A stretch of DNA of 64,000 nucleotides from contig OZ037835.1 of the NCBI GenBank assembly GCA_964035575.1, forward strand, positions 1,426,001 through 1,490,000. Reading direction: 5' to 3'. Made by a program: the position numbers and the translations under genes. The notes under the pieces are model-generated. The model was given only the letters and a program-made list of their open reading frames with translations. It was not told where the DNA came from and ran no database searches. Below are positions 28,299-62,010 of this stretch, one piece after another (positions within the stretch are counted from its first letter, which is position 1; the number at the start of each line of letters is the position of its first letter). Source of the DNA: Rhynchopus sp. YZ270_cl-10. Its lineage: Eukaryota.

Positions 28299-29244
28299 TT
28301 CAAACGTTTTTCTTACATTGCTCGCTTACGTTTCGTTATTTTCTGTTCATATTTCATACTTTCATACAGCCCATATTAGCGACTCAGGGTTTGTGCTCCT
28401 CTATAGCCTCTCCCACACTGCGAAACAGGCAGAGGACTCCAACCGGACACTACATCACACAGACCTTTTTACCCTGTGTTCGCAATGATCCCCGTTCATC
28501 TGACTGATGAGTGGAAGCGGGAGTAGCACGTATCAGATGTATGTAGGACTGCATGGTTGTCCACCCCTGTATCCGGTCGTGTACTAAGGTACGCTGTAAC
28601 GAGAGGGTTTTGTATTTCAGTTCAACTTTCATTTCCTTCCACCACAACAAGCATTTCACACCACATGAGAATATGGCTTGCAAACTCTTGCAGTGCTTGT
28701 CCCCCCATGATCTGAATACGCGCAGCTACGCTGTCGTTGTGTTTTACAGATGCTGTTGTGTCAAACCTTTCGTGTGCTGTGTGCTAGACTTTAGTATCCA
28801 CCTCTGTGAGAGAGTTATTCAAGTGACCGTTTATTTTAAGTTGTCGTACCAATCAAAAAATATGAATTTCTGTACCTCGGGTTTTATTGCCCTGCCTTTT
28901 CGTAAATACCACATTTCTGAACTTCGGGCCAAATGGCTACTTTTACTGACGTCAAGTTCCGGGTTGTTCTGTGTTATCACACTACTCCTGGTAACTTCTG
29001 TTGTGGACGAAGCTTCTTCCTCTCGCAGGGATTTGCTGATTAATTACCACGGAAAACACAAAGTCGCTAAGTTCTCTGTTGGTAACAACCACATCTGGTC
29101 CGTCACATACCTGGACCGTACACACGGCATACGTATCACTTATACGTTCTGTAGGCTCTGTCTCCCGTCTTCGTGCTTTGTATGGTTCGTGCAATGTGCC
29201 CTGCTTCACACATCCTCTTACTACAGGTCACCCCTACCTTATCC

Positions 29245-33253: not shown

Positions 33254-33700
33254 GAACCTTAGTTCTGACCACGTGCACTGCTTCTTTTGTTGCAAACGTT
33301 TTTCTTACATTGCTCGCTTACGTTTCGTTGTTTTCTGTTCATATTTACTAGTTTCATTTCCTTCCACCACAACAAGCATTTCACACCACATGAGAATATT
33401 GCTTGCAAACTCTTGCAGTGCTTGTCCCCCCATGATCTGAATACGCGCAGCTACGCTGTCGTTGTGTTTTACAGATGCTGTTGTGTGTGTGTCAAACCTT
33501 TCGTGTGCTGTGTGCAAGATGAGTATCCACGTCTGTTAGACGTTGCGTTTGATTTCTGCGGTATTTGTTCCCATTCAAATCGATTTATTTGTTCTTTCCA
33601 TCACAACCAACTACTGGTCCCAACGAAACACACGCTCAAAGGTTCGCCCTTGTCCATTTTCTTTTATCTTTTTGTTGAGCGCCACTGATGTAACGTCACT

Positions 33701-36540
33701 ATGGTACTATGGTACTATGGTACTATGGTACTATGGTACTATGGTACTATGGTACTATGGTACTATGGTACTATGGTACTATGGTACTATGGTACTATGG
33801 TACTATGGTACTATGGTACTATGGTACTATGGTACTATGGTACTATGGTACTATGGTACTATGGTACTATGGTACTATGGTACTATGGTACTATGGTACT
33901 ATGGTACTATGGTACTATGGTACTATGGTACTATGGTACTATGGTACTATGGTACTATGGTACTATGGTACTATGGTACTATGGTACTATGGTACTATGG
34001 TACTATGGTACTATGGTACTATGGTACTATGGTACTATGGTACTATGGTACTATGGTACTATGGTACTATGGTACTATGGTACTATGGTACTATGGTACT
34101 ATGGTACTATGGTACTATGGTACTATGGTACTATGGTACTATGGTACTATGGTACTATGGTACTATGGTACTATGGTACTATGGTACTATGGTACTATGG
34201 TACTATGGTACTATGGTACTATGGTACTATGGTACTATGGTACTATGGTACTATGGTACTATGGTACTATGGTACTATGGTACTATGGTACTATGGTACT
34301 ATGGTACTATGGTACTATGGTACTATGGTACTATGGTACTATGGTACTATGGTACTATGGTACTATGGTACTATGGTACTATGGTACTATGGTACTATGG
34401 TACTATGGTACTATGGTACTATGGTACTATGGTACTATGGTACTATGGTACTATGGTACTATGGTACTATGGTACTATGGTACTATGGTACTATGGTACT
34501 ATGGTACTATGGTACTATGGTACTATGGTACTATGGTACTATGGTACTATGGTACTATGGTACTATGGTACTATGGTACTATGGTACTATGGTACTATGG
34601 TACTATGGTACTATGGTACTATGGTACTATGGTACTATGGTACTATGGTACTATGGTACTATGGTACTATGGTACTATGGTACTATGGTACTATGGTACT
34701 ATGGTACTATGGTACTATGGTACTATGGTACTATGGTACTATGGTACTATGGTACTATGGTACTATGGTACTATGGTACTATGGTACTATGGTACTATGG
34801 TACTATGGTACTATGGTACTATGGTACTATGGTACTATGGTACTATGGTACTATGGTACTATGGTACTATGGTACTATGGTACTATGGTACTATGGTACT
34901 ATGGTACTATGGTACTATGGTACTATGGTACTATGGTACTATGGTACTATGGTACTATGGTACTATGGTACTATGGTACTATGGTACTATGGTACTATGG
35001 TACTATGGTACTATGGTACTATGGTACTATGGTACTATGGTACTATGGTACTATGGTACTATGGTACTATGGTACTATGGTACTATGGTACTATGGTACT
35101 ATGGTACTATGGTACTATGGTACTATGGTACTATGGTACTATGGTACTATGGTACTATGGTACTATGGTACTATGGTACTATGGTACTATGGTACTATGG
35201 TACTATGGTACTATGGTACTATGGTACTATGGTACTATGGTACTATGGTACTATGGTACTATGGTACTATGGTACTATGGTACTATGGTACTATGGTACT
35301 ATGGTACTATGGTACTATGGTACTATGGTACTATGGTACTATGGTACTATGGTACTATGGTACTATGGTACTATGGTACTATGGTACTATGGTACTATGG
35401 TACTATGGTACTATGGTACTATGGTACTATGGTACTATGGTACTATGGTACTATGGTACTATGGTACTATGGTACTATGGTACTATGGTACTATGGTACT
35501 ATGGTACTATGGTACTATGGTACTATGGTACTATGGTACTATGGTACTATGGTACTATGGTACTATGGTACTATGGTACTATGGTACTATGGTACTATGG
35601 TACTATGGTACTATGGTACTATGGTACTATGGTACTATGGTACTATGGTACTATGGTACTATGGTACTATGGTACTATGGTACTATGGTACTATGGTACT
35701 ATGGTACTATGGTACTATGGTACTATGGTACTATGGTACTATGGTACTATGGTACTATGGTACTATGGTACTATGGTACTATGGTACTATGGTACTATGG
35801 TACTATGGTACTATGGTACTATGGTACTATGGTACTATGGTACTATGGTACTATGGTACTATGGTACTATGGTACTATGGTACTATGGTACTATGGTACT
35901 ATGGTACTATGGTACTATGGTACTATGGTACTATGGTACTATGGTACTATGGTACTATGGTACTATGGTACTATGGTACTATGGTACTATGGTACTATGG
36001 TACTATGGTACTATGGTACTATGGTACTATGGTACTATGGTACTATGGTACTATGGTACTATGGTACTATGGTACTATGGTACTATGGTACTATGGTACT
36101 ATGGTACTATGGTACTATGGTACTATGGTACTATGGTACTATGGTACTATGGTACTATGGTACTATGGTACTATGGTACTATGGTACTATGGTACTATGG
36201 TACTATGGTACTATGGTACTATGGTACTATGGTACTATGGTACTATGGTACTATGGTACTATGGTACTATGGTACTATGGTACTATGGTACTATGGTACT
36301 ATGGTACTATGGTACTATGGTACTATGGTACTATGGTACTATGGTACTATGGTACTATGGTACTATGGTACTATGGTACTATGGTACTATGGTACTATGG
36401 TACTATGGTACTATGGTACTATGGTACTATGGTACTATGGTACTATGGTACTATGGTACTATGGTACTATGGTACTATGGTACTATGGTACTATGGTACT
36501 ATGGTACTATGGTACTATGGTACTATGGTACTATGGTACT
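33701..36540. repeat. Perfect octamer satellite (ATGGTACT)x355
   Basis: 2840 bp of ATGGTACT with no variant unit that I could see. Confidence 0.98.
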
Positions 36541-37467
36541 ATATACTATACTACGGTATCCTTTTTGTACGAGTATGCAATATGTCTGGAAATTAAAGAC
36601 GCTTTCGTTCTTCGGTTGCCATGAGTCTTACCGTTTTCCCCTCCCCCCCTTTTGTGCTCCACCTCTCCCCCGTACTTCATGATGCGATCAACAAGCAACG
36701 AACAATGAACAAATAATGAAGGGCGGGTATTGCATTTTTGTTTTATTTTTGGGGTGGTGAGTTTTCTCCGTTGCTGAACAGTGTCTGTACACTCCCCAAC
36801 GCATACCTGTGTCGGGAAGCGAGTGGGACAGTAGGGGTGTAGGAGAACTTATTGTGAAGCCTTCACAGCGAGACTTCCCGATGAGGGTAGGAAAGTCCTG
36901 GATTATTCTATTCCAACAAGGAAGGGAACCATGCTGCAGGCGTGCCTGCCCCTTTCCTCCTCTCGGGCGGCGGTAGAACAGGGTTGTTTTGATCACTGTG
37001 CGTATTGCGTTTTTGGGGAGTGCTTGGTTCGCTCAATCGGTTCGGATGGACAGGGCCAGTAGGGTTTTTGTACCCTTTAGAGAAGACGCATGGATGTGTG
37101 CTCGGTCCTCCCCCGCAGAAGCGTGCGGCGGGTACCATGTTCACAGGTTTTCTCGCTTTTCCCACTATTCCCCTTTCCCCCCCTTATACTGCATAGTATG
37201 CTGATATTACGCATCGGTCCCTTTGGGCCATGCTGCGGTCAGCGGAAAAGGACAGTGGTAGATTAGTGAAGACAAACTAAGTGGCAAAATGGTGGTATAG
37301 TTTTTTCTGCAAACCCCAAAAGACTGAAACCCCATGTCCTGAACTATGGTTGAGCTGGGCCATGTGGGGGAAGCGGAAATAGATACCACGACGAGTCTCA
37401 TGCACCCTGCTACGTGTCCTCCCACCATATCACCACACACCACCACACAGCCCCACCCCTCCCCTTG

Positions 37468-46957: not shown

Positions 46958-48143
46958 GGGGGTACGACTCCAGCCATTTTTTGCGCACGGAAAATTCATT
47001 TGGCATTATCTGGTCATCTCCAAGGCAACTGCGGGTGAAAAACACCCTCAGAGTGGGTCACAGGGGGCCTGTGGGTCGAAAAACGACCCAGAAGCCACCC
47101 CAGAATACAAAAAAATGGAAAAAAAATAGTGAAAAAACGGCTTTTTTCACGTTTTGGCCACTTTGGGCAAAATAGCGATTTTTCGAGAAAAATCAAAAAC
47201 CGGGATATTTTTTGACATCACAAAGCCTCCTTTGGCACAAATATACCCCAAAAGTGGCCTGTGAGTCCATTCCAACCTGTTTTGGACATATTTGACACTT
47301 TTGGAAGTGTTTTTTTGGTGTTTTTAGGTCAAAAAAATGCCCAAGACGTCCCCAAGACATCCCCAAGACACTTTGCACACCCCCTGTTACGGTCATATTT
47401 TTTTCGTTTTTTTGCCTGAAACCCCCAAAATACCCCTCCCGGACCCCACATAGTCCCGAATATCCATCACACACCCACTCAGAGTGAGTAGAAGCACCCC
47501 AAAAAAAATATTTTTTAAAGCCCTTCAACTTCAACATGGATGCTGCCGAAACTGAAGCACAATTTTAGGGCTTTAAAAAATATTTTTTTTGGGGTGCTTC
47601 TACTCACTCTGAGTGGGTGTGTGATGGATATTCGGGACTATGTGGGGTCCGGGAGGGGTATTTTGGGGGTTTCAGGCAAAAAAACGAAAAAAATATGACC
47701 GTAACAGGGGGTGTGCAAAGTGTCTTGGGGATGTCTTGGGGACGTCTTGGGCATTTTTTTTGACCTAAAAACACCAAAAAAACACTTCCAAAAGTGTCAA
47801 ATATGTCCAAAACAGGTTGGAATGGACTCACAGGCCACTTTTGGGGTATATTTGTGCCAAAGGAGGCTTTGTGATGTCAAAAAATATCCCGGTTTTTGAT
47901 TTTTCTCGAAAAATCGCTATTTTGCCCAAAGTGGCCAAAACGTGAAAAAAGCCGTTTTTTCACTATTTTTTTCCATTTTTTTGTATTCTGGGGTGGCTTC
48001 TGGGTCGTTTTTCGACCCACAGGCCCCCTGTGACCCACTCTGAGAGTGTTTTTCACCCGCAGTTGCCTTGGAGATGGCCAGATAATGCCAAATGAATTTT
48101 CCGTGCGTTTGGTCCCAGCCAAAATGGCTGGAGTCGTATCCCC
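46958..48143. mobile_element. Foldback element (~1.19 kb near-perfect palindrome) with TA TSD
   Basis: Termini ggggRtacgactccagccatttt, arms ~565 bp, centre ~47525-47567. An empty paralogous site is present at ~48937-49000. Confidence 0.9.
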
Positions 48144-48430: not shown

Positions 48431-50595
48431 AATTATGGGGTGATAGTTTCACATAATGCCGCGCGTACCTGTTTTGTTTAATGGTTTGCTGGTAGGGGCT
48501 GATGTGTTCAGCGGGTCGTACATCCGGAGACTGTAGGACTGGTCTGATTTGAAGCTGGAGACAAGCTCGAAATGAGGAAAGGGTAAAGTGCAAATAATCC
48601 TTCACCCCTGTTTTTCATCGGGTGTGCAGGTAGATGGGTGCAGGTGGGTACGTTTGTGCCGCGTGGGCGATACGTTTGGGACACCTCACGGAATCTGAGG
48701 CAACATCGTCATCCCTGACCAGTCATGGTACAGGCACAGGCAGAAAGATGATGTGGATGATGTGGATTTCCAGGATTCATGACCACTTGCGAGGTCGCAA
48801 GGAGGTGAGAATTTTTTTCAGACGATACATTTATCATTAGATCATGTGTCGTCACACTGTGTTGCACAAAATTTCACCCCACGGTGTATGAAAAAGTACC
48901 CCCTTCCCACCCAAAAACATGACCAAACCCATAACATGGTCCTTTACCCCCCCCCCTTACCCCCTCCTTTACCCCCCCCCCCCTTATTTTACCCCCCTTT
49001 TTCCAAAATTTCCGGTTCACCGACCCAAAGGGGGGGGGGGGGGTAGGGGGTCGCATTGTCCTCACAAAAAGTGAAATAAAAATTTTTTGCAACATAGAAA
49101 CTCGTTTCCCGTGGAAAACTAGACACATACCCACCCCAAAAATGTTCGGAGGATCCAAAGAAACCATTTTTTTACACTTTGGTGGGCTCAGAAATACCAA
49201 AAATGGGGAAAATTAGTGAAAAATGGACTTTTACCCCAAAATGGGGAAAAATGGTTTTTTAGCAAAAAAATTGATTTTTTTGGATCACCAGAGGTCTATT
49301 TTGGTGACTCTCTGGTGCAAATCGGGTCCCAGGGGTCCTGTGGACCTGATTTCAACGACCAACAGGCTTCTGTACCACTTGCAAATGATTTTTTTTGAGT
49401 TTTTGAGTCAAAAAAAGTGCCTCTGACCCCCTTGTCACCCCCTTGTCCAGTCCAGGACTTTTCCCCTGGCCATCACATAAAGTAGGGTATGATGCAAATT
49501 TGGGTTCATACCCCCCCCAAAAATGGTCTGCGGACCCAACGGAACCGGTTTTTGACCCTTTGGAGGACTTAGAAGCACTAGAAATGGGGAAAAGGAGTGA
49601 AAAATTGCCCTCCCCCCCAGATGGGGGGGCAGGGGCGGTTTTGGGCTAAAAAATACCAAATTAGGGCCGCCAGAGTCCTCTTGGGGCCACTCTCCAGTGG
49701 AAATCGTACTCCTGGGGGTCCTGTGGGCCTGATTTCGACGGGCTGCACCCTTTTGGGCCCTAGAACCGATCTTGGTTTGAAATATTGAGTCGAATATGAC
49801 CCCCTGAACCCGTGCGTATGCGTGTAAAGCACCCCCCTCACCCCTCCCCCCTCACTGCCCACCTTCTCCTCCCCTGACAGGCGTAACAAATAAAAAAACG
49901 GCCTCCCACTCACAAAAAGCGTCTGAGGATGCTGCTGAGTTCGTGAGGAGGTTCGCGGATGCAGAGTGGATCAGGGGTGTGTGCATGCGTGTCCTGATGA
50001 AGTGCTTCAGCTGCGCATCGAAATGCACGACTGTGGGGGGAAGGCAGAAAATGCCAAATTAAGGCCGCCAGAGGCCTCTTGGGGTCACTCTCCGGTGTAA
50101 ATCGTACTCCTGGGGGTCCTGTGGGCCTGATTACGACGGGCTGCACCCTTTTGGACCCTGCGAACCGATCTTGGTTTGAATTATTTAGTTAAATATGTCA
50201 AATTCCTCCAATCATGGGCTGTATACAGTACAAAATCATGAAAACACCAATAAAAAGGCATTTTTTTTCGTTTTTTCACGTCTTTTGCCGCAAAACCCCT
50301 CAAGAACCCCCGGAAACCCATTTTTGGGGTGGCGCAGGGTGTGGGTCACCACTGAAATGGCCCACCGGCGAAAAAATAATAATGAACAAGATAAAACAAA
50401 AAAGCTTGCGTTTCTTTTATCGAACAGATTTTATTCTCCGCCCCGTACCCAAAACGTAAACACCACTTTGAATCAGAAAAAATATTTTCTTTTCTTTTTT
50501 CTTCCACACGCGCTTGGTTTTTGTGTTTCATTAACTTTTATCAAAAAGCTTTACCGTTCTTTTCCCTCTTTTTCTTCTCTTCTTTCTCTCTCATT

Positions 50596-51987
50596 ATGCC
50601 TGCCACGGACACCCGCACGAAGGCGCAGCTCCTTGCGGCTCTGCGAGACATGAAGAGGCAGGCGGAGGATCAGAGGGCGGACCTGGAGGAGCGCGAGGCG
50701 CGGATGGAGAAGAAGCTGGATCGGGCAATGTCATCTTTGGCGGCGCGAGACCCGCCCGCCGACCACCAACAATATTGTTACGACCTCCAGGATGAAGGAA
50801 TGGAGGGTCGCGGGGGGTGGGATCAGAGCGGGTACGAGGCGTGGGACTATGGGGATGATAATGAAGGGGACCCCGTTGATGACGTGCCGGGTAACGGTGC
50901 AGATGTTGACGACGACGACGACCTGACGGAGGAACCGAATACGCAGACGACAAAGCCACCTGTGGTGAAGCCGGCGACGAAGGCTGCGACGCGTGCTGCG
51001 AAACCGTCTCCGCGTGCGTCCCCCGAAAGCCCTGCGACGTTGTCCGAGATGGTGGAGGCCGTGACGGCGGCCGTGCTGGCGCGTCTTCCTCCGCAGCTCC
51101 CCGCGCAGGGCAAGACGCCTGATGTCCCGCCGACGCCGAAGCTGGCTGGGAAGAGACGCAGAGACCCGCCGTGTGACATTTTCCCATTGCTGACAACGGC
51201 GGCTGCGGACGCCTTGTACGTGGCGTACACGGAGGAGCACGGGGACTTTTTCTTTGACCGCATGCCTGAAGAGGTGTCTCGTTTGCTCGCCAACTGCGAC
51301 AAGCAAGCCGAAGCCATGACGGTCTTATCGGATTACGCGCCGCTCTCCGCACCGAAGGGCCCTGTGACGCAGTCTTCTGCCGACGACGACCAGGAGGAGG
51401 AAGGTGCAGACATTCGGTGCTACACTGAAGTGTCCAGGTGGCCTGAGACGTTTGACGAGTCCTGGTTTGCGGAGTTTGAGCGGGTACTCCGTGCTAGGAC
51501 GGACATGTACGCGTTTCTGGGCAACCACGGGCTTCAGGAGAAACGCGACAGGACTTTTCTGACCATCCGAAACTTTTGGATCTTCCGGAACCAGAACCCC
51601 GCAGCGCTGACCGAATGGCTCCGCCGCATGAGGGGGCACATGGCTGAACTGGAGGCCCTCCGTGCCACCTACACCACGAGGTCCCCGGGGGCGGCCGAAC
51701 ACATGCGCAGGCAGCTCGAGTCGAATAATCTTCCTCGCGCCCTGCGTGACGCCCGCAGGAGGTTCGAGGTGGATTTTCGGCCTACGGGAAAGTCGAATGG
51801 GGCCACGCACAACACCACGCACTTTCCCAGAAAATCGACAGGCAGAGCGACCCCGCGGCCGGCCCAGACCCCGAAGCCCACACCGAAGACTGCCCCGAAG
51901 AAGCCGGAGGGGAAGGCCTGCCACCGGTTCCTGAAGGGGCTTGCGTGCCTCAAGCATCCTTGCCCGTTCGAACACCAGAAGCAGTGA
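50596..51987 (+). CDS. gag: Gag-like protein with N-terminal coiled coil and C-terminal CCCH zinc finger
   Basis: First ORF after repeat A1; ends in CHRFLKGLACLKHPCPFEH. Confidence 0.8.
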   Translation: MPATDTRTKAQLLAALRDMKRQAEDQRADLEEREARMEKKLDRAMSSLAARDPPADHQQYCYDLQDEGMEGRGGWDQSGYEAWDYGDDNEGDPVDDVPGNGADVDDDDDLTEEPNTQTTKPPVVKPATKAATRAAKPSPRASPESPATLSEMVEAVTAAVLARLPPQLPAQGKTPDVPPTPKLAGKRRRDPPCDIFPLLTTAAADALYVAYTEEHGDFFFDRMPEEVSRLLANCDKQAEAMTVLSDYAPLSAPKGPVTQSSADDDQEEEGADIRCYTEVSRWPETFDESWFAEFERVLRARTDMYAFLGNHGLQEKRDRTFLTIRNFWIFRNQNPAALTEWLRRMRGHMAELEALRATYTTRSPGAAEHMRRQLESNNLPRALRDARRRFEVDFRPTGKSNGATHNTTHFPRKSTGRATPRPAQTPKPTPKTAPKKPEGKACHRFLKGLACLKHPCPFEHQKQ

Positions 51988-52953
51988 CCACGATGGGAGG
52001 ACTCGGTGGCGGGGCTGGAGGCGCGAGCGACGTGTGCCGCGACGAAGGCGCAGACGCGCAGCATCGTGCGGAAGTACGAAATGTACACGCGCGCCTGCGG
52101 ACTCGGGCAGATGCCGCACCCTTTGCGCCTACGGGCGTTCGCCGCCGCAATGTTGTCGGATCGGATGAGCGCGGAGGAGAAGGAGAGGCTGCTGGTGCGA
52201 GCGCCGGGGCAACGTGGGCGACCCTTCTCCCTGGCGATGACGACGTCGGCGCTGGAGCGGTACGTGAACGTGCTGGCTCGGGTGCTGGAAGTGCCGGACA
52301 GTGTGCTGAGGGAGACCCGCAAGGGGCTGGTGCGCACTCGCCTGGAACGACGGGAAACCCCCACTCACGCGCCACCCCTGCCCTACACCTGCATGCAGCA
52401 GACTTGGAAGCGTCTCTGGCGAGAGGGAAACAGTGTTCTGTGTGCGGCCGTGGCGTTGGCGTGGACGGGTGCGCTGCGCATGGCAGACCTGCGTGCTATA
52501 CTCCCATCAGACGTCGTGCTCCCAGAAGCAGGCAGGGTGGGCACGGGCACCATTGCGATAAGGTGGTGGACGGTGAAGGAGGCCAGGCTACGAGGGGACC
52601 CAGCCGAGCTGCTATACACCCTCCCCGAGCATATGTTCCCTGCCATCCGCCGGTGGAAGCTACGCGGGATGGCGTTCAGTGTGTCAGACATCCGCAACCT
52701 GGGACGGGAGACCTCTCTGCACTTCCCCGAATATCGCGACCACTCCTGGAAGAGAGGGGCCTTGCAGCACTTGGCGATGATGGGGGCCACGTGGGGGGAT
52801 ATGCTGGTGGTGGCACGCCACAAGGAGGTCGACACGCTCCGCCGATACCTCTGGGGGTGCATCACTCCCGACTTCCTGTCCCTGGAGCGCACATCGGCGA
52901 TGCTGCACCGCCCGATACCCCAGAGCTGGAGAGCGTCGGGGCGCTCCGACTGA
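51988..52953 (+). CDS. Tyrosine recombinase (integrase) of the retroelement
   Basis: Motifs GALRMADL (R), TVKE (K), HSWKRGA (H..R), ARHK (H) and LRRYL (Y). The frame is open directly after the gag TGA. Confidence 0.9.
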   Translation, partial: PRWEDSVAGLEARATCAATKAQTRSIVRKYEMYTRACGLGQMPHPLRLRAFAAAMLSDRMSAEEKERLLVRAPGQRGRPFSLAMTTSALERYVNVLARVLEVPDSVLRETRKGLVRTRLERRETPTHAPPLPYTCMQQTWKRLWREGNSVLCAAVALAWTGALRMADLRAILPSDVVLPEAGRVGTGTIAIRWWTVKEARLRGDPAELLYTLPEHMFPAIRRWKLRGMAFSVSDIRNLGRETSLHFPEYRDHSWKRGALQHLAMMGATWGDMLVVARHKEVDTLRRYLWGCITPDFLSLERTSAMLHRPIPQSWRASGRSD

Positions 52954-54719
52954 CGGAACGGAACCGTGTGTCCGACTGGTGTCCGGAGTATGCGCGATCA
53001 TTGGAGACGTCCCACCCTCTGCTTGAGTGGGACTACGACATTGTGGCAGTGGTGGCGACACATGTGCGTGTGCTGGCGCAGGAGATCGATGCGGCGTGGC
53101 AGGGCTGCGACCTGTCGGAGGACAGTGAGACTTGTTTTGTGGAAGATCCGGAAGGCCACCTCCTGCACCTGAGCTCGGGCTCCGATGTGGCTGACTCGCT
53201 CCGCAGGCACGAGCGCATGATTGGGGAATGTGCGGCCTCGGTGTATGCGGTTGGTGTGGCCCGTGGTCCGTCGAAGGGTTGCGATGCGGCATTGGATGTG
53301 CTCCCGGACAGCCGCCTGAACCTATCTGTAGTGGAGGAAGGGCTGAACGAGTGGGAACGTACGCTCCTGAGGGACTATGTGAACGAGCCCATGCTGCATA
53401 CGACCACCCGCAAACAGTGCCAGACCTCCTCCTCGCTCACCTGTGCGGACCTCGCCAGCTTGGTGAAGAAGGGCATCCTGCGCGTAGCTGTGGGCAGGCC
53501 GCACATCACCCTCCCCACCTTCAAGATTGGCAAGAAGAACGGCCTGGCGCGCCTTCTGGTCGATGGGAGGGAGTTTGACAAGAGGTCAAAGCCAGTGCTC
53601 CCTCCGCTCACCCCACAACTCTCCGACCTCGAGCGTTTCGTGCTCCAGCACAACTTCTTCTGCTGTGTCGACTTTCTGGGATATTTTTTCCAGATCCCTG
53701 TCGGCCCCGATCTGCAGACCAAGCTGGGGATCAGGACCACAGAAGGGTATTTCTGCTTCCGGGTGGCGGTCCCGGGGATCAGCAGGGCTCCCTCTGTCGC
53801 GCAGCTGGCCACACTGGGGATGCTACAGCGAGCTAACCTCCGTTCAGTGTCCCTTGCGATATATGACGATGTCTGCATTGCAGGTCAGACACTGGCGGAG
53901 GTGGAGCAGCGACGACAGGCTTTCGATGCGACGTTGCGTGACGCGAACTGCGTGGTGAGGGAGGAGAAGCGGGTGGACCCCACACACTGCGCGGTGTTCA
54001 TTGGTGTCCAGCTGGACATGTCGGCGAAGACGTTGGCGCTGGACGAGGACTGGAGGAGTAAGCTGCTGGCGTCGCCTACGCCCCGGACTCTCACCTGCAG
54101 AGCGGTGGCCCACCACATTGGGTGCTACAGATGGGCGCACTTGGTCATGCGCACGCCGATCGCTGGGTTCACCCTGATGTGCCGCCTCTCTCGGCAGCTA
54201 AGCCGCCACTGCACTACGGCGAAAGAGTGGGACAGGTCGGTTACCTTGACGGGCTCCTTGCTAGCGGAGTTTCGCCGTGCTGAGAAGTGGCTGGCGGCGT
54301 GTCGTCCCCGGCGTGTTCTGGCAGATGCGCCTGCGTGGCACATATGGTCTGATGCCAGCGACGTGGGTGCGTCTGTTGTCTTGCTGGACCCTGTGGCACG
54401 GAAGGTGAAGGCACGTGTGGACTGGACGTGGGATGCTCTCCTGCTGACGTGCCGCCCACCCACGCCTATTCGCAGGAGGGAGCTGGTGACCGCCCTCATC
54501 GCCATGGCTGTGGCTGACTCTGTTGCCCCGCGAGGGTATGGATTGGATTGTTTTCATGACAATTCCACTGCGGAGTCACGCCACCGCAAAGGTTCGTCGC
54601 CCCACCCTCAGGAGGACCAGCTGATGGCAAGACTGATGTCAGGCATAAGTCTTCGGAGAAGGTTCACCACGCACCTGGTCGGGACGAAGCTGATGGTGGC
54701 GGACCTGGACACGCGATGA
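51993..54719 (+). CDS. pol: Reverse transcriptase-RNase H (DIRS-order), overlapping the YR ORF in the -1 frame
   Basis: RT motifs VDFLGYFFQI, PGISRAPSVAQ, IYDDVCI, FIG. RNase H motifs WSDAS, RELVTA, HDNSTA, ADLDTR. The true start is uncertain. Confidence 0.9.
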   Translation: MGGLGGGAGGASDVCRDEGADAQHRAEVRNVHARLRTRADAAPFAPTGVRRRNVVGSDERGGEGEAAGASAGATWATLLPGDDDVGAGAVRERAGSGAGSAGQCAEGDPQGAGAHSPGTTGNPHSRATPALHLHAADLEASLARGKQCSVCGRGVGVDGCAAHGRPACYTPIRRRAPRSRQGGHGHHCDKVVDGEGGQATRGPSRAAIHPPRAYVPCHPPVEATRDGVQCVRHPQPGTGDLSALPRISRPLLEERGLAALGDDGGHVGGYAGGGTPQGGRHAPPIPLGVHHSRLPVPGAHIGDAAPPDTPELESVGALRLTERNRVSDWCPEYARSLETSHPLLEWDYDIVAVVATHVRVLAQEIDAAWQGCDLSEDSETCFVEDPEGHLLHLSSGSDVADSLRRHERMIGECAASVYAVGVARGPSKGCDAALDVLPDSRLNLSVVEEGLNEWERTLLRDYVNEPMLHTTTRKQCQTSSSLTCADLASLVKKGILRVAVGRPHITLPTFKIGKKNGLARLLVDGREFDKRSKPVLPPLTPQLSDLERFVLQHNFFCCVDFLGYFFQIPVGPDLQTKLGIRTTEGYFCFRVAVPGISRAPSVAQLATLGMLQRANLRSVSLAIYDDVCIAGQTLAEVEQRRQAFDATLRDANCVVREEKRVDPTHCAVFIGVQLDMSAKTLALDEDWRSKLLASPTPRTLTCRAVAHHIGCYRWAHLVMRTPIAGFTLMCRLSRQLSRHCTTAKEWDRSVTLTGSLLAEFRRAEKWLAACRPRRVLADAPAWHIWSDASDVGASVVLLDPVARKVKARVDWTWDALLLTCRPPTPIRRRELVTALIAMAVADSVAPRGYGLDCFHDNSTAESRHRKGSSPHPQEDQLMARLMSGISLRRRFTTHLVGTKLMVADLDTR

Positions 54720-55511
54720 GCCGGTGCTTGCGTGTGAGTTTTTGATGTTGTGATGTCTGCGTTTTTATTGCTTTTACTTGTGTTTTTTGATTTTATTGAC
54801 GGCACTCTGTGGCAGGTGAGATAGCCCTGGCGGTCTCTCATCTCTCGGGTGTTTTTTCTTGTTGTTGTTGTTGTTTTCTTCTTTTTGCGTCTGTCGCGCG
54901 TATCGTCCATCCCTTGCCTATGCTGGTGTCCCGCCTGTGGTCACTGGGGCTACGGAGATGGGTGAAAATGAGGGGGGGGTAGTTGTTTATGTCCCTAGTT
55001 TCGACGCGAAACGTTTCCCCATGTATTGCACGGGAAACAATATATATGACAAACAGGTGCAGGGTGGTTCCGTGCTTATCATAGAACCCGGCACCTTGTG
55101 TGTCTTCCAAAAACCAAAAAGCGTTGTGTGTGAAGTTTTGAAGGAAGGAAAAATAAAATGAACAAGATAAAACAAAAAAGCTTGCGTTTCTTTTATCGAA
55201 CAGATTTTATTCTCCGCCCCGTACCCAAAACGTAAACACCACTTTGAATCAGAAAAAATATTTTCTTTTCTTTTTTCTTCCACACGCGCTTGGTTTTTGT
55301 GTTTCATTAACTTTTATCAAAAAGCTTTCCCTCCCTCCACTCCCTGCTTTTTCTTCATAAAGTTGTGCCTTATTGGCTTGATTGCTTGTTTAGCTCTTTC
55401 TCTGTGCTGCTCGCGCATTGTCTGTTTTCCCTTGCGTGCATGTTTTACATGGTGTTTCTCTCTGTTGCTACTGGCACACTGTTTTGTTTCTTCCTGTTGC
55501 ACGAAAGCGGA

Positions 55512-56997
55512 TGAGCTAATACTGGGTAACCCTGCTTGAGCTGAGTTCTTGATGATCCCGGGTGATTCCAGGGTTAGAGTTCTTGTGGCTTCTCGCATGG
55601 GTTGGTTCTGCTTGCGTAGAGATCTTGTTGATCCCGGGTGATAAAGAGACGGAGTGCCGTAGGGGCTCGTCTTTCCAGGGCTAGAGTTCTCGATGCCACT
55701 TGTAGGCTTGTTGATCCCGGGTGATAGGAGACTGAGCTCCATATGGGCTTGTCTCTCCAGGGGTAGAGCTCTGTGGTCGCCTGCATTACTGTGTATTTAT
55801 GCTCGGATGTTTTTTGTGTCTATTCGCGTATCTCTTTTCTTTCCTGGTACATGTATTCGGACGAGTGTATACTGGGTAACCCTGCCTGAGCAGAGTTCTT
55901 GAGGATCCCGGGTGATTCCAGGGGTAGAGTTCTTGTGGCTTCTCGCATGGGTTGGTTCTGCTTGCGTAGAGATCTTGTTGATCCCGGGTGATAAAGAGAC
56001 TGAGTGCCGTATGGGCTCGTCTTTCCAGGGCTAGAGTTCTCGATGCCACTTGTAGGCTTGTTGATCCCGGGTGATAGGAGACTGAGCTCCATATGGGCTT
56101 GTCTCTCCAGGGGTAGAGCTCTGTGGTCGCCTGCATTACTGTGTATTTATGCTCGGATGTTTCTTGTGTCCATTTGCTCTGTCTTACTTTCCTGTTACAT
56201 GAATGCGGATGAGTGTATACTGGGTAACCCTGCTTGAGCAGAGTTCTTGAGGATCCCGGGTGATTCCAGGGGTAGAGTTCTTGTGGCTTCTCGCATGGGT
56301 TGGTTCTGCTTGCGTAGAGATCTTGTTGATCCCGGGTGATAAAGAGACGGAGTGCCGTATGGGCTCGTCTTTCCAGGGCTAGAGTTCTCGATGCCACTTG
56401 TAGGCTTGTTGATCCCGGGTGATAGGAGACTGAGCTCCATATGGGCTTGTCTCTCCAGGGGTAGAGCTCTGTGGTCGCCTGCATTACTGTGTATTTACGC
56501 TCGGATGTGTTTTGTGTCTACTTGCTTATCTCTTTTCTTTCCTGTTACATGAATGCGGATGAGTGTATACTGGGTAACCCTGCTTGAGCAGAGTTCTTGA
56601 GGATCCCGGGTGATTCCAGGGGTAGAGTTCTTGTGGCTTCTCGCATGGGTTGGTTCTGCTTGCGTAGAGATCTTGTTGATCCCGGGTGATAAAGAGACGG
56701 AGTGCCGTATGGGCTCGTCTTTCCAGGGCTAGAGTTCTCGATGCCACTTGTAGGCTTGTTGATCCCGGGTGATAGGAGACTGAGCTCCATATGGGCTTGT
56801 CTCTCCAGGGGTAGAGCTCTGTGGTCGCCTGCATTACTGTGTATTTACGCTCGGATGTTTTTTGTGTCTATTTGCTCTGTCCTACTTTCCTGTTACATGC
56901 ATGCGGATGAGTGTATACTGGGTATCCCTGCTTGAGCTGAGTTCTTGATGATCCCGGGTGATTCCAGGGTTAGAGTTCTTGTGGCTTCTCGCATGGG
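55512..56997. repeat. Tandem array of 350/348-bp units (4 full + 1 partial) between repeats A2 and B2
   Basis: The anchor actgggta occurs at 55521, 55871, 56219, 56569 and 56917. Each unit contains three gatcccgggtgat ... ccagggNtagagYtct modules. Confidence 0.95.
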
Positions 56998-57678
56998 TAT
57001 CTCTTCTGCTGCCTGTAGACACATGATTTTGTACCTGTAGTGCTTGACGTAAGATTTAATGTTGATCTGGCCCGTCCTGGGAAGTGATCTTGTGGTCGGC
57101 ACTGAATGCGGTCATGTGTCTTTGTCTTACGATATTTTTGCCACCTCGATGTGGTGTTTCTTATGACGTTTCTCTGATACCTCCCTTGGGAGCATGAATA
57201 CATGCCTCTTTTAGCTCTGTCAGTACACAGCCAACCGGCGTGCTGCTCTTCTTACGTTTCTCTTGTCTTTGGTCATATATCAGTAGTTTATGCAAACGTC
57301 TCAAATTTAAAAACCCCTGTTACCTGTGTTGTCATTGTTTCCCTAGTTTCGACGCGAAACGTTTCCCCATGTATTGCACGGGAAACAATATATATGACAA
57401 ACAGGTGCAGGGTGGTTCCGTGCTTATCATAGAACCCGGCACCTTGTGTGTCTTCCAAAAACCAAAAAGCGTTGTGTGTGAAGTTTTGAAGGAAGGAAAA
57501 ATAAAAAAATTACATAAAAACGTTAGCCAATGCGACCCTCTAGGGGGGGGGGGGGGGGGGGTACACGACGGACTAGTTATGACCATGACAGGTGATTTTA
57601 CTAGTAAAATGACAGGTGAAAATTTTTGACAGGTGGTACCTGTCATTTTGACAGGTACCACCTGTCAAAATACAGGCA

Positions 57679-57878
57679 CCAGGTACCCAGGTGCCCAGGT
57701 ACCCAGGTACCCAGGTACCCAGGTACCCAGGTACCCAGGTACCCAGGTACCCAGGTACCCAGGTACCCAGGTACCCAGGTACCCAGGTACCCAGGTACCC
57801 AGGTACCCAGGTACCCAGGTACCCAGGTACCCAGGTACCCAGGTACCCAGGTACCCAGGTACCCAGGTACCCAGGTAC
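57679..57878. repeat. Octamer microsatellite (CCAGGTAC)x25
   Basis: Direct reading; one variant unit (ccaggtgc). Confidence 0.95.
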
Positions 57879-59518
57879 CCCCAATGACATAACGAAGTAT
57901 CGCTTGAAAGTACCGTTCAATAACCTTTCTTGGGTGTGCATGAAGTAGCACACAAGGTATATCAAACGGTAAATCAATCAGATAAACGTTACATCATCGG
58001 AAAATTGTTGGCACCGCCCCCCTGTCTTCGTATTTATTACGTCGACAGGCCAAACAGCGTTGGGCTCAGAAGAAGCAGTGCAAAACACTGGGGATCAACA
58101 TGAGAACCAACTCCCAACAACACAGGCTACCAAAGTAGCAGGTGGGGTGTTGCGGGTGTTTGGGGTGAAAGAAAATCGATTTTGGTAAGTTCCAGCAGAA
58201 AATTCTTAAGTTTGCACTAGTCGAGAGAGGCTTACCCGCTGCAGTGAAGCAGTGCACCCATTTAAGGATGGAGAAGCGTGACACGCACATACAAGTATGT
58301 ACGTTACTTCAACAAAGGCTGAATTCTGGTAATTCTAAGGGATGTGAATTCAGCCACCACGCAGGTAGTGTTTTAAGGTTCCTCGCTTTGTTCTGCACAG
58401 CGGCCTTATGATACAAAGGAGTTGCCCCCGCTCTCTTTCGCGCAAACTTAAGAAAATTCTGAAGTAACTACAACCTGGCGTGCGGGTACAGATGCATTGC
58501 TTTGTTCTTTCCTCAAAGTCATGTGTGATCTCTCGGGTCTGTACTAAAGTCAGTGTTTAGATAAGCATCCACTTGACTCGTTCTAACAACCGTTGAAATC
58601 TAGAACAAAACAACACACTGCCCCTTCTCACACCAAGCCGCCATGCTTCAAGAGCATGCCCTGGGCAAAAATTACTGTGACAAAAACTGGTTTCTGGGGG
58701 AACGCAATATTTTCTTGTGTCTAGTCCTCCGCAAGCAGAGGACAGACTTTCCGGATCCCGAAGTCGAATTTCTTGCACTAGCTATGCTCCCTGGGTTAAT
58801 GGCTATAGCAGTGACTGACAAGAGTTTCCCACCCCCAGATGAAGAAAGAACCGACGCAGAGTTGTGGCTTCTTCATAGTTTTTTCTGCATTTTATAAGTT
58901 CATCCTGTGAGGGAGGGTGTTTTTGGAGGTGTGATGGGAAGAGGAAAAGAAAAAGCAAGAAGAAGAGATATTACTTTTTTGGTGTCGCTACTAGTAAATG
59001 ACAGGTGTAAAGTATGACAGGTGGAAACCTGCCATGTCACAGGAAATGCTGTGTGTGTGTGTGTAACAAAATGAACGACCTCACCGACCCGCATAAAATA
59101 AAACTTATAAGAACAAAACCCAAGAAACAAACAAAAAAAAAAAAAAAAAGAGAGAAAACAAACAAGAGCAAACACTCTCAAAAGAAATGCTCGAGACTCG
59201 TTCCTCTTTGCTTGTTGCTCAAAAGACTATTAACGGGGGGGGGGGGGGAAAGTAAAGATTGTTTGTTGTTCGCTTCCACACCACTTCTGCACTCAGATTC
59301 AAGTCTTTTGGCTGTCCTTACAAGCGCCTGCCAAAACGCTCGCCTCGTGGGTGTGGACTTTTTTCTTTTTCTTTTTCCCTTTTTTTTCTTCGACTTGATT
59401 TACGGTATGGTTGTGTTTGACTGAAGTACAGAAAGTGTCGTGGAGCACAGGGAAGAAAAGAGAGAGAGGGAAAACCGGGGAGCGGGAGAGGGGAAAACCC
59501 GCAAACCTTAGATTTAAA

Positions 59519-61345
59519 TTAACTATGAGCAGATTTCATGTGCGAGTCTCTTGCTCTAGCATTTGAGAAACGTGTTGCGCACAACGGGCAGGTTTTTTTA
59601 TCCAAATTCTCAGCGTGCGCATGCAACAGGTGTTGGCTTAGCCCCGCAGTTTCCCTCAAACAAAACGGGCACTTCATGATAGGTGCACGATGTTTGCCAT
59701 CGTAATGGGCAAATAATCCAACTGAAGATTCGAATCCGGTGTTGCAGATAATGCAAGTATGGTCACCATTTTCATCATCTTTTTTTTTATCCTCGCACAC
59801 ATTTTCGACATTTTCGTCATCACTGTTGACTCCAGGCTCCTCATTGCACACACAAATGAGTAAAGTTTCCCCAGCTTTATCTTTTTTATCCCATACGTAT
59901 TTTTGCCCCTCCGCCCCTTTGTTGCAAGTATGCCGCTTCATACCCAGGTTTTTGACACGAGTTCTCAAACTAGTGAAGGCGTCTGTCCAGACAGCGTCTT
60001 TCTCGGTGATGCAGGTATGAAAATGAAAAGTGTTATAGTTATATAATACAGGCAATTTTTTTCTGTCGACTGGGCCAAGTTCAGGCAGGTCGCGTTTGCA
60101 ATTTTGCTCAACCAAATGCTTCTTGCTCAGTTCAAATGCCAGCAAGTCACGTTCCATGGTCTGGACAGATGTACACACAGTCCATCTCTTGCGTTCCCCA
60201 TTGCACTGTTCGAAAGCCTCATCTGAGAGACATATCCGATGTGCATCCTCCACGTCAAACCAGTGCTCAAGGCTATGAGCGTATGACGACCTGGTGACGC
60301 CTGCTTTGAAAAATTCAAGCAAAAATATGAGGGTATGGTATGAGAGGAGGGCGTAAAGGAAGTCCTTCTCGTAGGGGTTATCTGTGCCTTCGTGGTAGTG
60401 ATACCTGACAGGTATGTCTTGGTACCGGAAAAAAATGAGCACCTGCATACAGCTGCACATTATTTCCCGCATGCCAACCGTTTCACGTTCAAGCATGGTG
60501 AGGAGGGTACGTGATTGAGACCCCGTCATGTTCCCATCAGAAGAACCAGTGACTGTTTCTTGTGTGCTTCCTGCGTTGGGGATGGTCTTTATCATCAGGT
60601 TCACCATGCCTTTGCAATCGTGCAACGCAGGGGTTAAGGCATAGCACGGATGCTCAAATCGGTGCGAAATGTAACTGGTGAAGCCGAGCTCATCCATGCG
60701 CTGCAGGCTACACCTCTCACACCGATGAAGCTTCTTCAGTCTGTCATCGATATCAATGGGGCAGAAAGCAGTTCGATGTTTTCCTCCTAAACCCTTACAC
60801 AGTCTCAGCAACTCTGCATGATCACCTCCAAACCTGAAATGAAGGATAGGGATGCGCAACTTCTTAACGTAGCACCCACGCGACTGTATGGACTTCAAAG
60901 CAACGAGGCCGCAGAACAACCACCACTCGTAAAAGTCGCTTTTGGTTTTGTCCGCGACAGTCAGGAATCTACTCGCCTGAAGCCCACTGGCTAATCCCAC
61001 GGCAGCACGTTGACGACCACTTGCACTTCTGAATGCACTTCGAGGCGTGTATGCGTCAGCAGATAATACGAGGATAGCTGGTGGGGAGTTCACGGTGAAG
61101 GGGAACTTTGCAGTCAGAAAGCACACAGCCTTCTCGATGTTACCAATTAAGCTCGTTGCCTTCTCCTTAAACGGCTCCTCGCGTATCCTCAGCGTCTCTC
61201 TGGATAGACCTACCCTCAAGGATGTGTGCTTGCGGATGAGTGAGCCAATTCGTGACACTGTGGTCATTGATAGGCCCAATTCGAAGCGATATCTGGCGAT
61301 GATATCCGCAATTTTCAGGGCTGTGCCAAGGTGAAGTTCACTCAT
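59519..61345 (-). CDS. RAG1/Transib/Chapaev-like DDE transposase with three C-terminal C2H2 zinc fingers
   Basis: Ordered motifs LSAD(97), GGD(175)HAELLRLCKGL..FCP, ALHDCKG, MTGSQSRTL, YAHSLEH and SDEAFE(379)QCN parallel the RAG1-core motifs. Fingers: CIIC..H..H, CPFC..H..H, CPLC..H..H. Confidence 0.8.
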   Translation of the reverse strand: MSELHLGTALKIADIIARYRFELGLSMTTVSRIGSLIRKHTSLRVGLSRETLRIREEPFKEKATSLIGNIEKAVCFLTAKFPFTVNSPPAILVLSADAYTPRSAFRSASGRQRAAVGLASGLQASRFLTVADKTKSDFYEWWLFCGLVALKSIQSRGCYVKKLRIPILHFRFGGDHAELLRLCKGLGGKHRTAFCPIDIDDRLKKLHRCERCSLQRMDELGFTSYISHRFEHPCYALTPALHDCKGMVNLMIKTIPNAGSTQETVTGSSDGNMTGSQSRTLLTMLERETVGMREIMCSCMQVLIFFRYQDIPVRYHYHEGTDNPYEKDFLYALLSYHTLIFLLEFFKAGVTRSSYAHSLEHWFDVEDAHRICLSDEAFEQCNGERKRWTVCTSVQTMERDLLAFELSKKHLVEQNCKRDLPELGPVDRKKLPVLYNYNTFHFHTCITEKDAVWTDAFTSLRTRVKNLGMKRHTCNKGAEGQKYVWDKKDKAGETLLICVCNEEPGVNSDDENVENVCEDKKKDDENGDHTCIICNTGFESSVGLFAHYDGKHRAPIMKCPFCLRETAGLSQHLLHAHAENLDKKTCPLCATRFSNARARDSHMKSAHS

Positions 61346-61437
61346 AGTGTGTTTGCAGTTGTGATGTTTCTCTGTGTGATGAATTTATGTCGAGGGAGGG
61401 GTGACCCACTAAACTTCATCACAGCTGCAATCACACT

Positions 61438-62010
61438 ATGAGTGAACTTCATCACGGCACAGCCCATATCATCGCCAGATATCGCTTCGAATTGGCTCAC
61501 TCATCCGCAAGCACACATCCTTGAGGGTAGGTCTATCCAGAGAGACGCTGAGGATACGCGAGGAGCCGTTTAAGGAGAAGGCAACGAGCTTAATTGGTAA
61601 CATCGAGAAGGCTGTGTGCTTTCTGACTGCAAAGTTCCCCTTCACCGTGAACTCCCCACCAGCTATCCTCGTATTATCTGCTGACGCATACACGCCTCGA
61701 AGTGCATTCAGAAGTGCAAGTGGTCGTCAACGTGCTGAGGGTTAGATTCCTGACTGTCGCGGACAAAACCAAAAGCGACTTTTACGAGTGGTGGTTGTTC
61801 TGCGGCCTCGTTGCTTTGAAGTCCATACAGTCGCGTGGGTGCTACGTTAAGAAGTTGCGCATCCCTATCCTTCATTTCAGGTTTGGAGGTGATCATGCAG
61901 AGTTGCTGAGACTGTGTAAGGGTTTAGGAGGAAAACATCGAACTGCTTTCTGCCCCATTGATATCGATGACAGACTTAACTTCATGATAAAGACCATTCC
62001 CAACGTAGGA
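61438..62010 (+). pseudogene. Inverted, internally deleted copy of the transposase 5' region
   Basis: Near-identical to the reverse complement of ~60570-61345, with several deletions and frameshifts. Confidence 0.9.

What the first reader, a model, noticed from the sequence alone, without database searches (positions are those of the whole stretch)
55512..56997. Structured repeat array with variable segments inside the YR retrotransposon, between split repeats A2 and B2
Seen: units alternate 350/348 bp, each with ~295 nearly invariant bp plus a ~55-bp segment that differs in every unit. Each unit has three gatcccgggtgat-[insert]-ccagggNtagag modules. The inserts are either empty or ~30-nt hairpins (gagac..gagtgccgtatgggctc..gtc; ggagac..gagctccatatgggctt..gtctct). 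Further hairpins include aaccctgc-ttga-gcagagtt, and a possible stem (ctgcatt..tgta / tacat..aatgcgg) encloses the variable segment. Known: in split-direct-repeat YR elements B1-A2-B2 are usually close together. Inference: an element-encoded structured RNA array (packaging or priming signal, self-cleaving unit, or small guide-like RNAs) linked to RT and recombinase.
Basis: partly seen in the sequence, partly recalled or inferred. Interest (0 to 1): 0.72.

Follow-up and report, generated by a model that had tools for sequence, protein, structure and literature searches.

The report
Hairpin array in VIPER-like retrotransposon tail
A jumping gene of a single-celled eukaryote carries, in its non-coding tail, four tandem copies of a 350-base unit with three predicted hairpins each; the supposedly variable segments are just two alternating pyrimidine-rich linkers, and the hairpins likely serve as a multi-site grip for the element's own proteins rather than as guide RNAs.

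Summary
The array is real: 4.3 units of 350/348 bp (55491-56998) with 13 GATCCCGGGTGAT...CCAGGGNTAGAG modules, between A2 and B2 of an intact gag-YR-RT/RH (VIPER-like) element whose named RT relatives are euglenozoan. The 'variable segment' is not spacer-like. It comes in two alternating homologous types (u1~u3 33/37, u2~u4 32/35 identical), and unit 4's version sits unchanged on a contig about as deep as the ORFs. Contig depths in public runs indicate that the element's other copies carry the array, so it is not a lone satellite insertion. A diverged sister unit family and array-less A-B fusions also exist. Unit bodies are far more conserved than linkers (u3/u4: 0/287 vs 8/31 differences). 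Module hairpins take 5 one-sided, pair-keeping changes and no double compensation. Folding energy is unremarkable (z +0.44), Rfam gives no real hit, and no RNA run was listed. There is no hammerhead core, and the C/D and AGA snoRNA definitions are only partly met. Best reading (0.38): a cis-acting, multivalent bulged-hairpin landing pad built by nested duplication. Rivals: neutral homogenised repeat (0.25), processed snoRNA-like RNAs (0.18).

The parts
50373..50578 (+). Split direct repeat A1, ending in a pyrimidine tract before gag
   Evidence: 95% to A2 by blastn
50596..51987 (+). ORF1, putative gag-like (463 aa, assigned by position only; no Pfam hit below E 0.1)
51988..52953 (+). ORF2, tyrosine recombinase (R, HxxR, H, Y motifs in LRMADL, HSWKRG, RHKE, RRYL)
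   Evidence: nearest ESM Atlas clusters score 0.98, PF00589 on 27-32% of members; Pfam itself gave no hit
51750..54719 (+). Open frame overlapping YR, holding RT (IYDD) and a probable RNase H region from about 52953
   Evidence: RVT_1 E 5e-6, below Pfam cut-off; relatives 36-45% identical
54987..55158 (+). Split direct repeat B1; contains a hairpin (55056-55095) with a CAGGG/CCCGG helix like that of the modules
55149..55354 (+). Split direct repeat A2 (B1-A2 junction)
55491..56998 (+). Tandem array, 4.3 units starting at 55491, 55841, 56189, 56539, 56887; 698-bp higher-order dimer
55554..55579 (+). Module 1, empty insert (also at 55904, 56252, 56602, 56950)
55630..55686 (+). Module 2, 32-nt hairpin insert (also at 55980, 56328, 56678)
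55713..55768 (+). Module 3, 31-nt hairpin insert paralogous to module 2 (also at 56063, 56411, 56761)
55508..55522 (+). 5' strand of the predicted unit-closing helix, CGGA(T/C)GAG motif (also at 55858, 56206, 56556, 56904)
55793..55809 (+). 3' strand of the predicted closing helix, GCTCGGATG motif (also at 56151, 56499, 56849); faces the 5' strand as a tandem G.A/A.G pair
55810..55840 (+). Pyrimidine-rich linker type a (also 56508-56538); type b at 56160-56188 and 56858-56886; each lies in a 95-97-nt AG-free stretch
56999..57334 (+). Unique spacer between array and B2; its 3' part is shared with many other copies
57335..57506 (+). Split direct repeat B2, right end of the element
   Evidence: 57340-57506 identical to B1

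Best explanation
The array is a heritable part of the A2-B2 tail of a VIPER-like tyrosine-recombinase retrotransposon, built by nested tandem duplication, and its repeated predicted bulged hairpins likely act on the element's own RNA as a multi-site landing pad for its Gag or RT. SHOWN: the location; the nesting (about 80-nt module, 350-bp unit, 698-bp dimer); conserved bodies with divergent pyrimidine linkers. INFERRED from contig depth: the other close copies carry the array. PREDICTED: each module folds as a lower stem, 3-nt GNN bulge, CCC.GG/CC.GGG helix with an A.G mismatch, unpaired UGAU(A), and an optional upper hairpin; each unit is closed by a helix with a tandem G.A pair. INFERRED and untested: protein binding, and the advantage it would give an autonomous genome RNA over the many array-less A-B derivatives. 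The linkers are spacers, perhaps doubling as trans-splicing/polyadenylation signals, and not guides.
For: Family trait: junction, post-array and ORF contigs of similar depth in X1 (618, 570, 533-574); in X6 the unit contig is at 7.8 against about 2 (the floor) for ORFs. Unit 4's linker contig has 0 differences at depth 477 (X1) and 531 (X4). Body vs linker divergence: 0-6 of 287 vs 3-9 of 29-31 in all 6 unit pairs, Fisher p 1e-2 to 3e-9. A sister-family contig (X1, depth 2277, 20 substitutions and 7 gap letters over 56802-56960) has none of its 17 listed substitutions or listed indels in 56849-56862 or 56906-56912, the two faces of the G.A motif; 3 substitutions were not listed. Module structure: 93.6% of 125 cells paired against 19-62% for slid controls, 5 one-sided pair-keeping changes, upper hairpin 100% paired; RNAalifold gives nearly the same fold. 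Some other copies end just after the 3' motif (joints from 56858 and 56862), begin at 55494, or lack module 1: modules are dropped while unit ends are kept. The B repeat holds one CAGGG/CCCGG helix (42 of 5000 shuffles; post hoc). Two unchecked AI notes describe hairpin arrays in DIRS and Ngaro elements (leads only).
Against: No double-sided compensation among 25 module pairs, and observed values equal the shuffle control. One such change among 18 closing-helix pairs, matched by 366 of 500 shuffles. Unit folding z = +0.44; only 1 of 19 + strand windows has z < -2, and it lies over the linker. End-to-end duplex matched by 29-103 of 1000 shuffles; in a whole-array fold the closing helix is lost and modules 2 and 3 mostly pair elsewhere; forcing modular folds costs 6 kcal/mol. 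The strand is G/U-rich (T 117, G 106 of 350), so G-U-tolerant changes are cheap. Array-less A-B fusions are common (joints at depth 954, 527, 347, 99), so the array is not universal in this repeat family. The sister unit family is deeper (about 2300) than the close ORFs (about 550), which cis-preference does not predict simply. Most genomic B copies carry T at 55089, changing the shared helix to a G-U pair. One variant (55735 A>T, depth 952 in X1) would break a module-3 pair unless its partner also changed. No binding data.
Confidence: 0.38

Rival explanations
1. Neutral hypervariable tail repeat: template switching or unequal exchange expanded a sequence in the dispensable A2-B2 spacer, conversion keeps the bodies alike, and the low-complexity linkers drift. 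It spreads as a passenger.
For: Nested duplication and a dimer pattern typical of satellites. z about 0 and no significant covariation. Array-less A-B forms exist. Tandem arrays are common in 3' UTRs of Ogre/Tat retrotransposons (PMC7004042, passages), and a 12-copy array of a ~400-bp 5'UTR/intergenic motif is described in Diplonema (PMC10161547, passages).
Against: Body/linker contrast in all 6 unit pairs. Motif islands kept in a diverged sister family. The 13-nt and 12-nt motif arms are the same in three old paralogous modules (one variable position) while their flanks diverged.
Confidence: 0.25
2. Element-encoded snoRNA-like small RNAs: each ~315-nt unit runs from a C-like box (C[G/U]GAUGA) to a D-like box (CGGA), holds hairpins ending in AGA, is cut out at the pyrimidine linkers by host trans-splicing/polyadenylation, and acts in trans or stabilises the element's RNA.
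For: Conserved body with divergent linker, as in RNA gene arrays. 95-97-nt AG-free stretch ending at a fixed AG in u2-u5 (21 of 2000 shuffles). The array opens with the C-like motif and has no D-like motif before it. The sister family has CTGATGA. Modules 2 and 3 are 57-58 nt with an A before the stem and AGA after it. Trypanosomatid snoRNA genes are clustered, repeated and polycistronic (PMC2613932, passages).
Against: The D box is CGGA, not CUGA, in all four full units. The pocket is closed by self-pairing; read as open, its 5' side is 15-16 nt against the 5-11 consensus; module 1 has none. Best Rfam match is SNORD48 at 14 bits against a cut-off of 36. 53 AG-free stretches of 80 nt or more occur in the window. 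Cutting at the linkers would separate A2 from B2, which replication is thought to need on one RNA (inference).
Confidence: 0.18
3. The repeated feature that matters is the RNA-processing signal (pyrimidine tract plus AG): tandem acceptors that tune where the element's transcript is trans-spliced or polyadenylated. The hairpins are secondary.
For: One AG-free, pyrimidine-rich stretch per unit (28-30 of 35-37 nt pyrimidine). Such tracts drive coupled trans-splicing and polyadenylation in kinetoplastids (PMC4006747, passages).
Against: The first AG moves in u1 (55506) and in the sister family. It does not explain why the body is the conserved part.
Confidence: 0.12
4. One reading: self-cleaving units, or guide-like RNAs whose variable segments are acquired or specify targets.
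For: Repeat-plus-variable look; CTGATGAG in the sister family.
Against: Linkers are two inherited homologous types, unchanged in a contig as deep as the ORFs, with no match elsewhere in the window. No Rfam ribozyme hit. Window units read CGGATGA, and no GAAA follows a stem II (seen in the sequence).
Confidence: 0.05

Closest known systems
VIPER and TATE retrotransposons of kinetoplastids (PMC6681497, PMC12278014; passages read)
   Same: gag-like, overlapping YR and RT/RH ORFs in that order; split direct repeats A1 ... B1 A2 B2 of similar size (A ~206, B ~172 here; A 173, B 219 in T. cruzi).
   Different: 1,980 bp with a structured array between A2 and B2. 'tandem' in the main text of PMC6681497 refers to element clusters, and no hit in the supplements searched (13 held, one not searched). 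The RT's close relatives are diplonemid; no direct comparison with T. cruzi VIPER or TATE proteins was made.
SIRE of T. cruzi and solo AB repeats of Cafeteria Ngaro (PMC6681497; PMC8547959; passages)
   Same: Array-less A-B fusions of this element's repeats are abundant in the same runs.
   Different: Whether these are mobile or recombination remnants is open; either way they come from forms without the array.
Tandem arrays in 3' UTRs of Ogre/Tat LTR retrotransposons (PMC7004042; passages)
   Same: Short tandem arrays downstream of the coding region, spread with the element.
   Different: Different retroelement order; here bodies are conserved relative to linkers and hairpin modules are nested.
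TOC1 (Chlamydomonas) and kangaroo (Volvox) internal tandem arrays (recalled; papers not held)
   Same: Recalled as split-repeat YR elements with internal arrays of about 76 and 89 bp.
   Different: PAT-like group; no sequence comparison made; array details are from memory only.
Kinetoplastid AGA-box (H/ACA-like) and box C/D snoRNA clusters (PMC2613932; passages)
   Same: Repeated cluster, short linkers, single hairpins followed by AGA, C-like motif.
   Different: Non-canonical D box, closed pocket, no Rfam match, no target tested, located inside a retrotransposon.

Membership tests
VIPER/TATE-like YR retrotransposon | ORF order gag-like, YR, RT/RH with overlap | tested here: met
   gag assigned by position only
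VIPER/TATE-like YR retrotransposon | Split direct repeats A1 ... B1 A2 B2 | tested here: met
VIPER/TATE-like YR retrotransposon | RT/YR phylogeny inside the VIPER or TATE clade | not tested
   No tree built; named relatives are Rhum and Flectonema transcripts and a Papus transcript at E 6e-32
Guide/spacer array (CRISPR-like) | Non-homologous spacers differing between units and copies | tested here: not met
   Two homologous alternating types, unchanged in a deep contig
Hammerhead or other catalogued ribozyme | Rfam match or CUGAUGA-stem-GAAA-stem-UH core | tested here: not met
   and the sequence; the sister family could only be seen in pieces
Hammerhead or other catalogued ribozyme | Self-cleavage in vitro | not testable with these tools
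   needs experiment
Box C/D snoRNA | Box C RUGAUGA at the 5' end (consensus recalled) | tested here: inconclusive
   CGGAUGA in window units, CUGAUGA in the sister family
Box C/D snoRNA | Box D CUGA at the 3' end (consensus recalled) | tested here: not met
   CGGA in 4 of 4 full units
Box C/D snoRNA | Antisense element to rRNA or snRNA | not testable with these tools
   No host rRNA on hand; the window has none
AGA-box H/ACA-like snoRNA | Single 57-91-nt hairpin, A before stem I, AGA right after it | tested here: met
   Modules 2 and 3 (criteria); module 1 is too short
AGA-box H/ACA-like snoRNA | Open pocket, 5' side 5-11 nt, 13-16 nt from AGA | tested here: not met
   Pocket strands pair with each other in 24 of 24 cells; the open reading gives a 15-16-nt 5' side
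Structured RNA under selection | Significant covariation | tested here: inconclusive
   Only 6 and 4 closely related rows; 0 and 1 double changes
Structured RNA under selection | Expression | not testable with these tools
   No RNA holder listed

The most novel reading that the evidence does not exclude
A tyrosine-recombinase retrotransposon encodes its own tandem cassette of snoRNA-like RNAs, capped by a G.A motif and cut out at pyrimidine linkers by host trans-splicing/polyadenylation, which recruit host snoRNP proteins or act in trans in replication (whose primer is unknown for this order).
Probability: 0.12. Interest if true: 0.85.

Novelty: new variant of a known kind. Interest (0 to 1): 0.45.

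Why it matters
How YR retrotransposons pick out, package and prime their RNA is unresolved: PMC7192593 states that no primer has been determined for DIRS-1 (passage). A 13-fold repeated, modular hairpin in an element with intact ORFs and identical B repeats gives a defined candidate for the RNA signal, with natural controls in the same organism (array-less A-B forms, units lacking single modules, a sister family). If neutral, it extends retrotransposon tail arrays to diplonemid VIPER-like elements.

Tried and rejected
No own genome is held, so copies were seen only as Logan contigs. These give depth proxies, truncated variant tables and loose ends of at most 30 letters; the best holder may be the window's own source. 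Neither laid stretch spanned the whole array, so unit number per copy was not read directly. Both calls dropped rows (for example 35 and 61 variant rows not shown). X4 lacks a window-identical contig over 57019-57110, and X8 covered only 57085-57144; holes prove nothing. No RNA holder listed: no evidence either way. The module pattern had 0 hits in metagenome and viral contigs. The RT profile found no related loci in metagenome (350 pattern hits, 0 confirmed) or viral contigs (62, 0), so there is no cross-species alignment. Rfam: no hit near a gathering score. Module-to-B pairing (UGAUA with the B loop) was rejected: 82-626 of 1000 shuffled B pair as well. Degenerate units in the flanks are not significant (22 and 26 of 300 shuffles), and the model finds none. 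Coding role: minus-strand frames of 108-243 codons cross units, but modules fall in different frames and 0 of 6 frames are open through the 348-nt test unit. Pol III: no B-box-like match, T4+ runs in only some linkers. A K-turn reading of the modules (GNN bulge, G.A, A-U at 2b.2n) is recalled geometry and untested. The TOC1, kangaroo and SIRE primary papers were not held. Earlier-findings look-ups by place and sequence were empty. Ten literature searches were run; none listed a paper on such an array in VIPER/TATE, but most hits were seen only as listings and the library lacks most subscription papers. PMC9659126 had no hit for the terms asked. My note that (ACTATGGT)n interrupts a kinase gene was wrong: it lies between copies.

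Full report
Setting. The window is eukaryotic, with tandem receptor-like kinase genes. At 50373-57506 lies an element with three open ORFs in the order gag-like, tyrosine recombinase, RT/RH and split direct repeats A1, B1, A2, B2. This is the architecture given for VIPER and TATE (PMC6681497 and PMC12278014, passages). The RT's close relatives are 36-45% identical; the named ones are Rhum and Flectonema transcripts, with a more distant Papus hit. I infer a diplonemid-like host. No tree was built.

The observation. The array spans 55491-56998: 4.3 units spaced 350/348/350/348, with 13 modules found nowhere else in the window. It is hierarchical. Modules 2 and 3 are 85% identical over 67 nt, three modules make a unit, and units form a 698-bp dimer. 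The 'variable segment' is a pyrimidine-rich linker (28-30 of 35-37 nt) with two alternating types: u1/u3 33 of 37 and u2/u4 32 of 35 identical, against 23-26 of 37 across types. It differs by substitutions, not by replacement.

Other copies. No genome was held. Six of 12 listed runs hold at least half of the element's words, none on record as RNA. In X1, ORF contigs have depth 533 and 574, the A2-to-array junction contig 618, the post-array contig 570, and unit 4's linker contig 477, all with 0 differences. Lone variant contigs lie near 90-120. With the tool's warning that depth is not copy number, I read this as about 5-6 close copies that carry the array and mostly the same linker. X4 shows the linker contig at 531, and X6 has the unit at 7.8 against about 2 for ORFs. 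Three further things appear. First, a diverged sister unit family: an X1 contig of depth 2277 with 20 substitutions and 7 gap letters over 56802-56960, also seen in X7 as a shorter unit. Second, single-copy-depth derivatives that end just after the unit's 3' motif, go from unit end to B, or lack module 1, and a deeper joint (748) from A to the unit start at 55494. Third, direct A-to-B fusions without an array (listed joints 954, 527, 347, 99), like SIRE or the solo AB repeats of Cafeteria Ngaro, which may be recombination remnants (PMC8547959, passage).

Structure, for. Unit bodies differ at 0-6 of 287 positions and linkers at 3-9 of 29-31 in all six unit pairs. The sister contig's listed changes spare both faces of a tandem G.A motif (56849-56862, 56906-56912) while 9 fall in 56863-56887 (3 substitutions unlisted). 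A named module structure is paired in 93.6% of 125 cells against 19-62% for slid controls, with 5 one-sided pair-keeping changes, and RNAalifold returns nearly the same fold. Each of the four units folded alone closes end to end, the core pairs at P 0.89-1.0. The B repeat holds one copy of the modules' CAGGG/CCCGG helix in opposite polarity (42 of 5000 shuffles, 3 non-B tiles of 361; post hoc).

Structure, against. Unit z is +0.44. There is no double compensation in modules and one non-significant case in the closing helix; the structures were derived from these same sequences. The end-to-end duplex is matched by 29-103 of 1000 shuffles. In a whole-array fold the closing helix disappears and modules 2 and 3 pair elsewhere, partly through the palindrome CCCGGG. 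The G/U-rich strand makes both folding and 'consistent' changes cheap. Structure is therefore plausible, not shown.

What it is not. It is not a spacer-acquiring or guide array. It is not a catalogued RNA or ribozyme. It is not a primer by complementarity to A or B, and there is no sign that it codes. It is not a canonical snoRNA cluster: the D box is CGGA and the AGA hairpins have a closed pocket by the criteria in PMC2613932. The resemblance (C-like start, AGA-ended hairpins, linkers in 95-97-nt AG-free stretches, 21 of 2000 shuffles) keeps that reading alive at 0.18.

Mechanism. In the accepted model the internal junction restores the element's ends (tested for the DIRS-1 ICR, PMC7192593, passages; extended to B1-A2 from my own knowledge). 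The A2-B2 interval is then cargo that travels on every genome RNA. I propose that a hairpin signal was multiplied there by nested duplication and kept because 13 copies bind the element's Gag or RT better than the single related helix in B, which matters where array-less A-B forms may compete for the same proteins. Location, nesting and the conservation contrast are shown; family-wide presence is inferred from depth; folds are predicted; binding and advantage are untested (0.38). Neutral expansion with conversion is the main rival (0.25), with precedent in Ogre 3' UTR arrays (PMC7004042) and gene-flank arrays in Diplonema (PMC10161547). Two unchecked AI notes report hairpin arrays in DIRS and Ngaro elements and reach a similar guess. 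They raised my weighting of the landing-pad reading but are not evidence.

Novelty. Ten searches of the held library and a term search of PMC6681497's supplements (one of 13 files not searched) showed no description of such an array in VIPER/TATE. Internal arrays in TOC1 and kangaroo are recalled only. All papers were seen as passages or listings, none in full. Verdict: a real, family-level feature and a new variant of a known kind, with the most exotic first reading refuted and the function open. Interest 0.45.

Noticed in passing
window 33698-36542: (ACTATGGT)n, 355.6 copies at 100% identity, between two kinase gene copies; (CCAGGTAC)n x25 at 57679-57880.
   Followed up: partly
window 12891-46433: Six tandem receptor-like proteins with two kinase domains and PT-rich extracellular repeats, 66-97% identical by block; the copy at 29182 is frameshifted near 32100.
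   Followed up: partly
window 46984-48107: About 1.1-kb near-perfect palindrome (arms 93-99% complementary, 42-nt centre), possibly a foldback element.
   Followed up: no
window 60735-61979: Inverted duplication with 100% arms of 250 and 237 nt overlapping a 621-aa minus-strand ORF (59519-61384) with C-terminal zinc fingers.
   Followed up: no
window 46928, 48133, 49021, 57533 and 49126-50197: Related G/C-run motifs on both sides of the element and 381-398-bp degenerate repeats just before A1 suggest that this copy sits inside another repeat.
   Followed up: no
window 54987-55354 (runs X1, X4, X6, X7): A and B repeats are far deeper than the ORFs, with many variants and direct A-to-B fusions: an abundant SIRE-like or solo-AB family.
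   Followed up: partly
window 55541-55557 (u1, u5) vs u2-u4: CTGA...TGATGA in the terminal units and CAGA...TGAGGA in the inner units change together, as would a K-loop pair; equally explained by shared descent.
   Followed up: no
proteins P0002-P0006: Several RT families 40-44% identical to this one sit on Mb-size contigs, one with the same length (1,300,354) as a contig holding this family; their A2-B2 spacers are the obvious place to look for other arrays.
   Followed up: no
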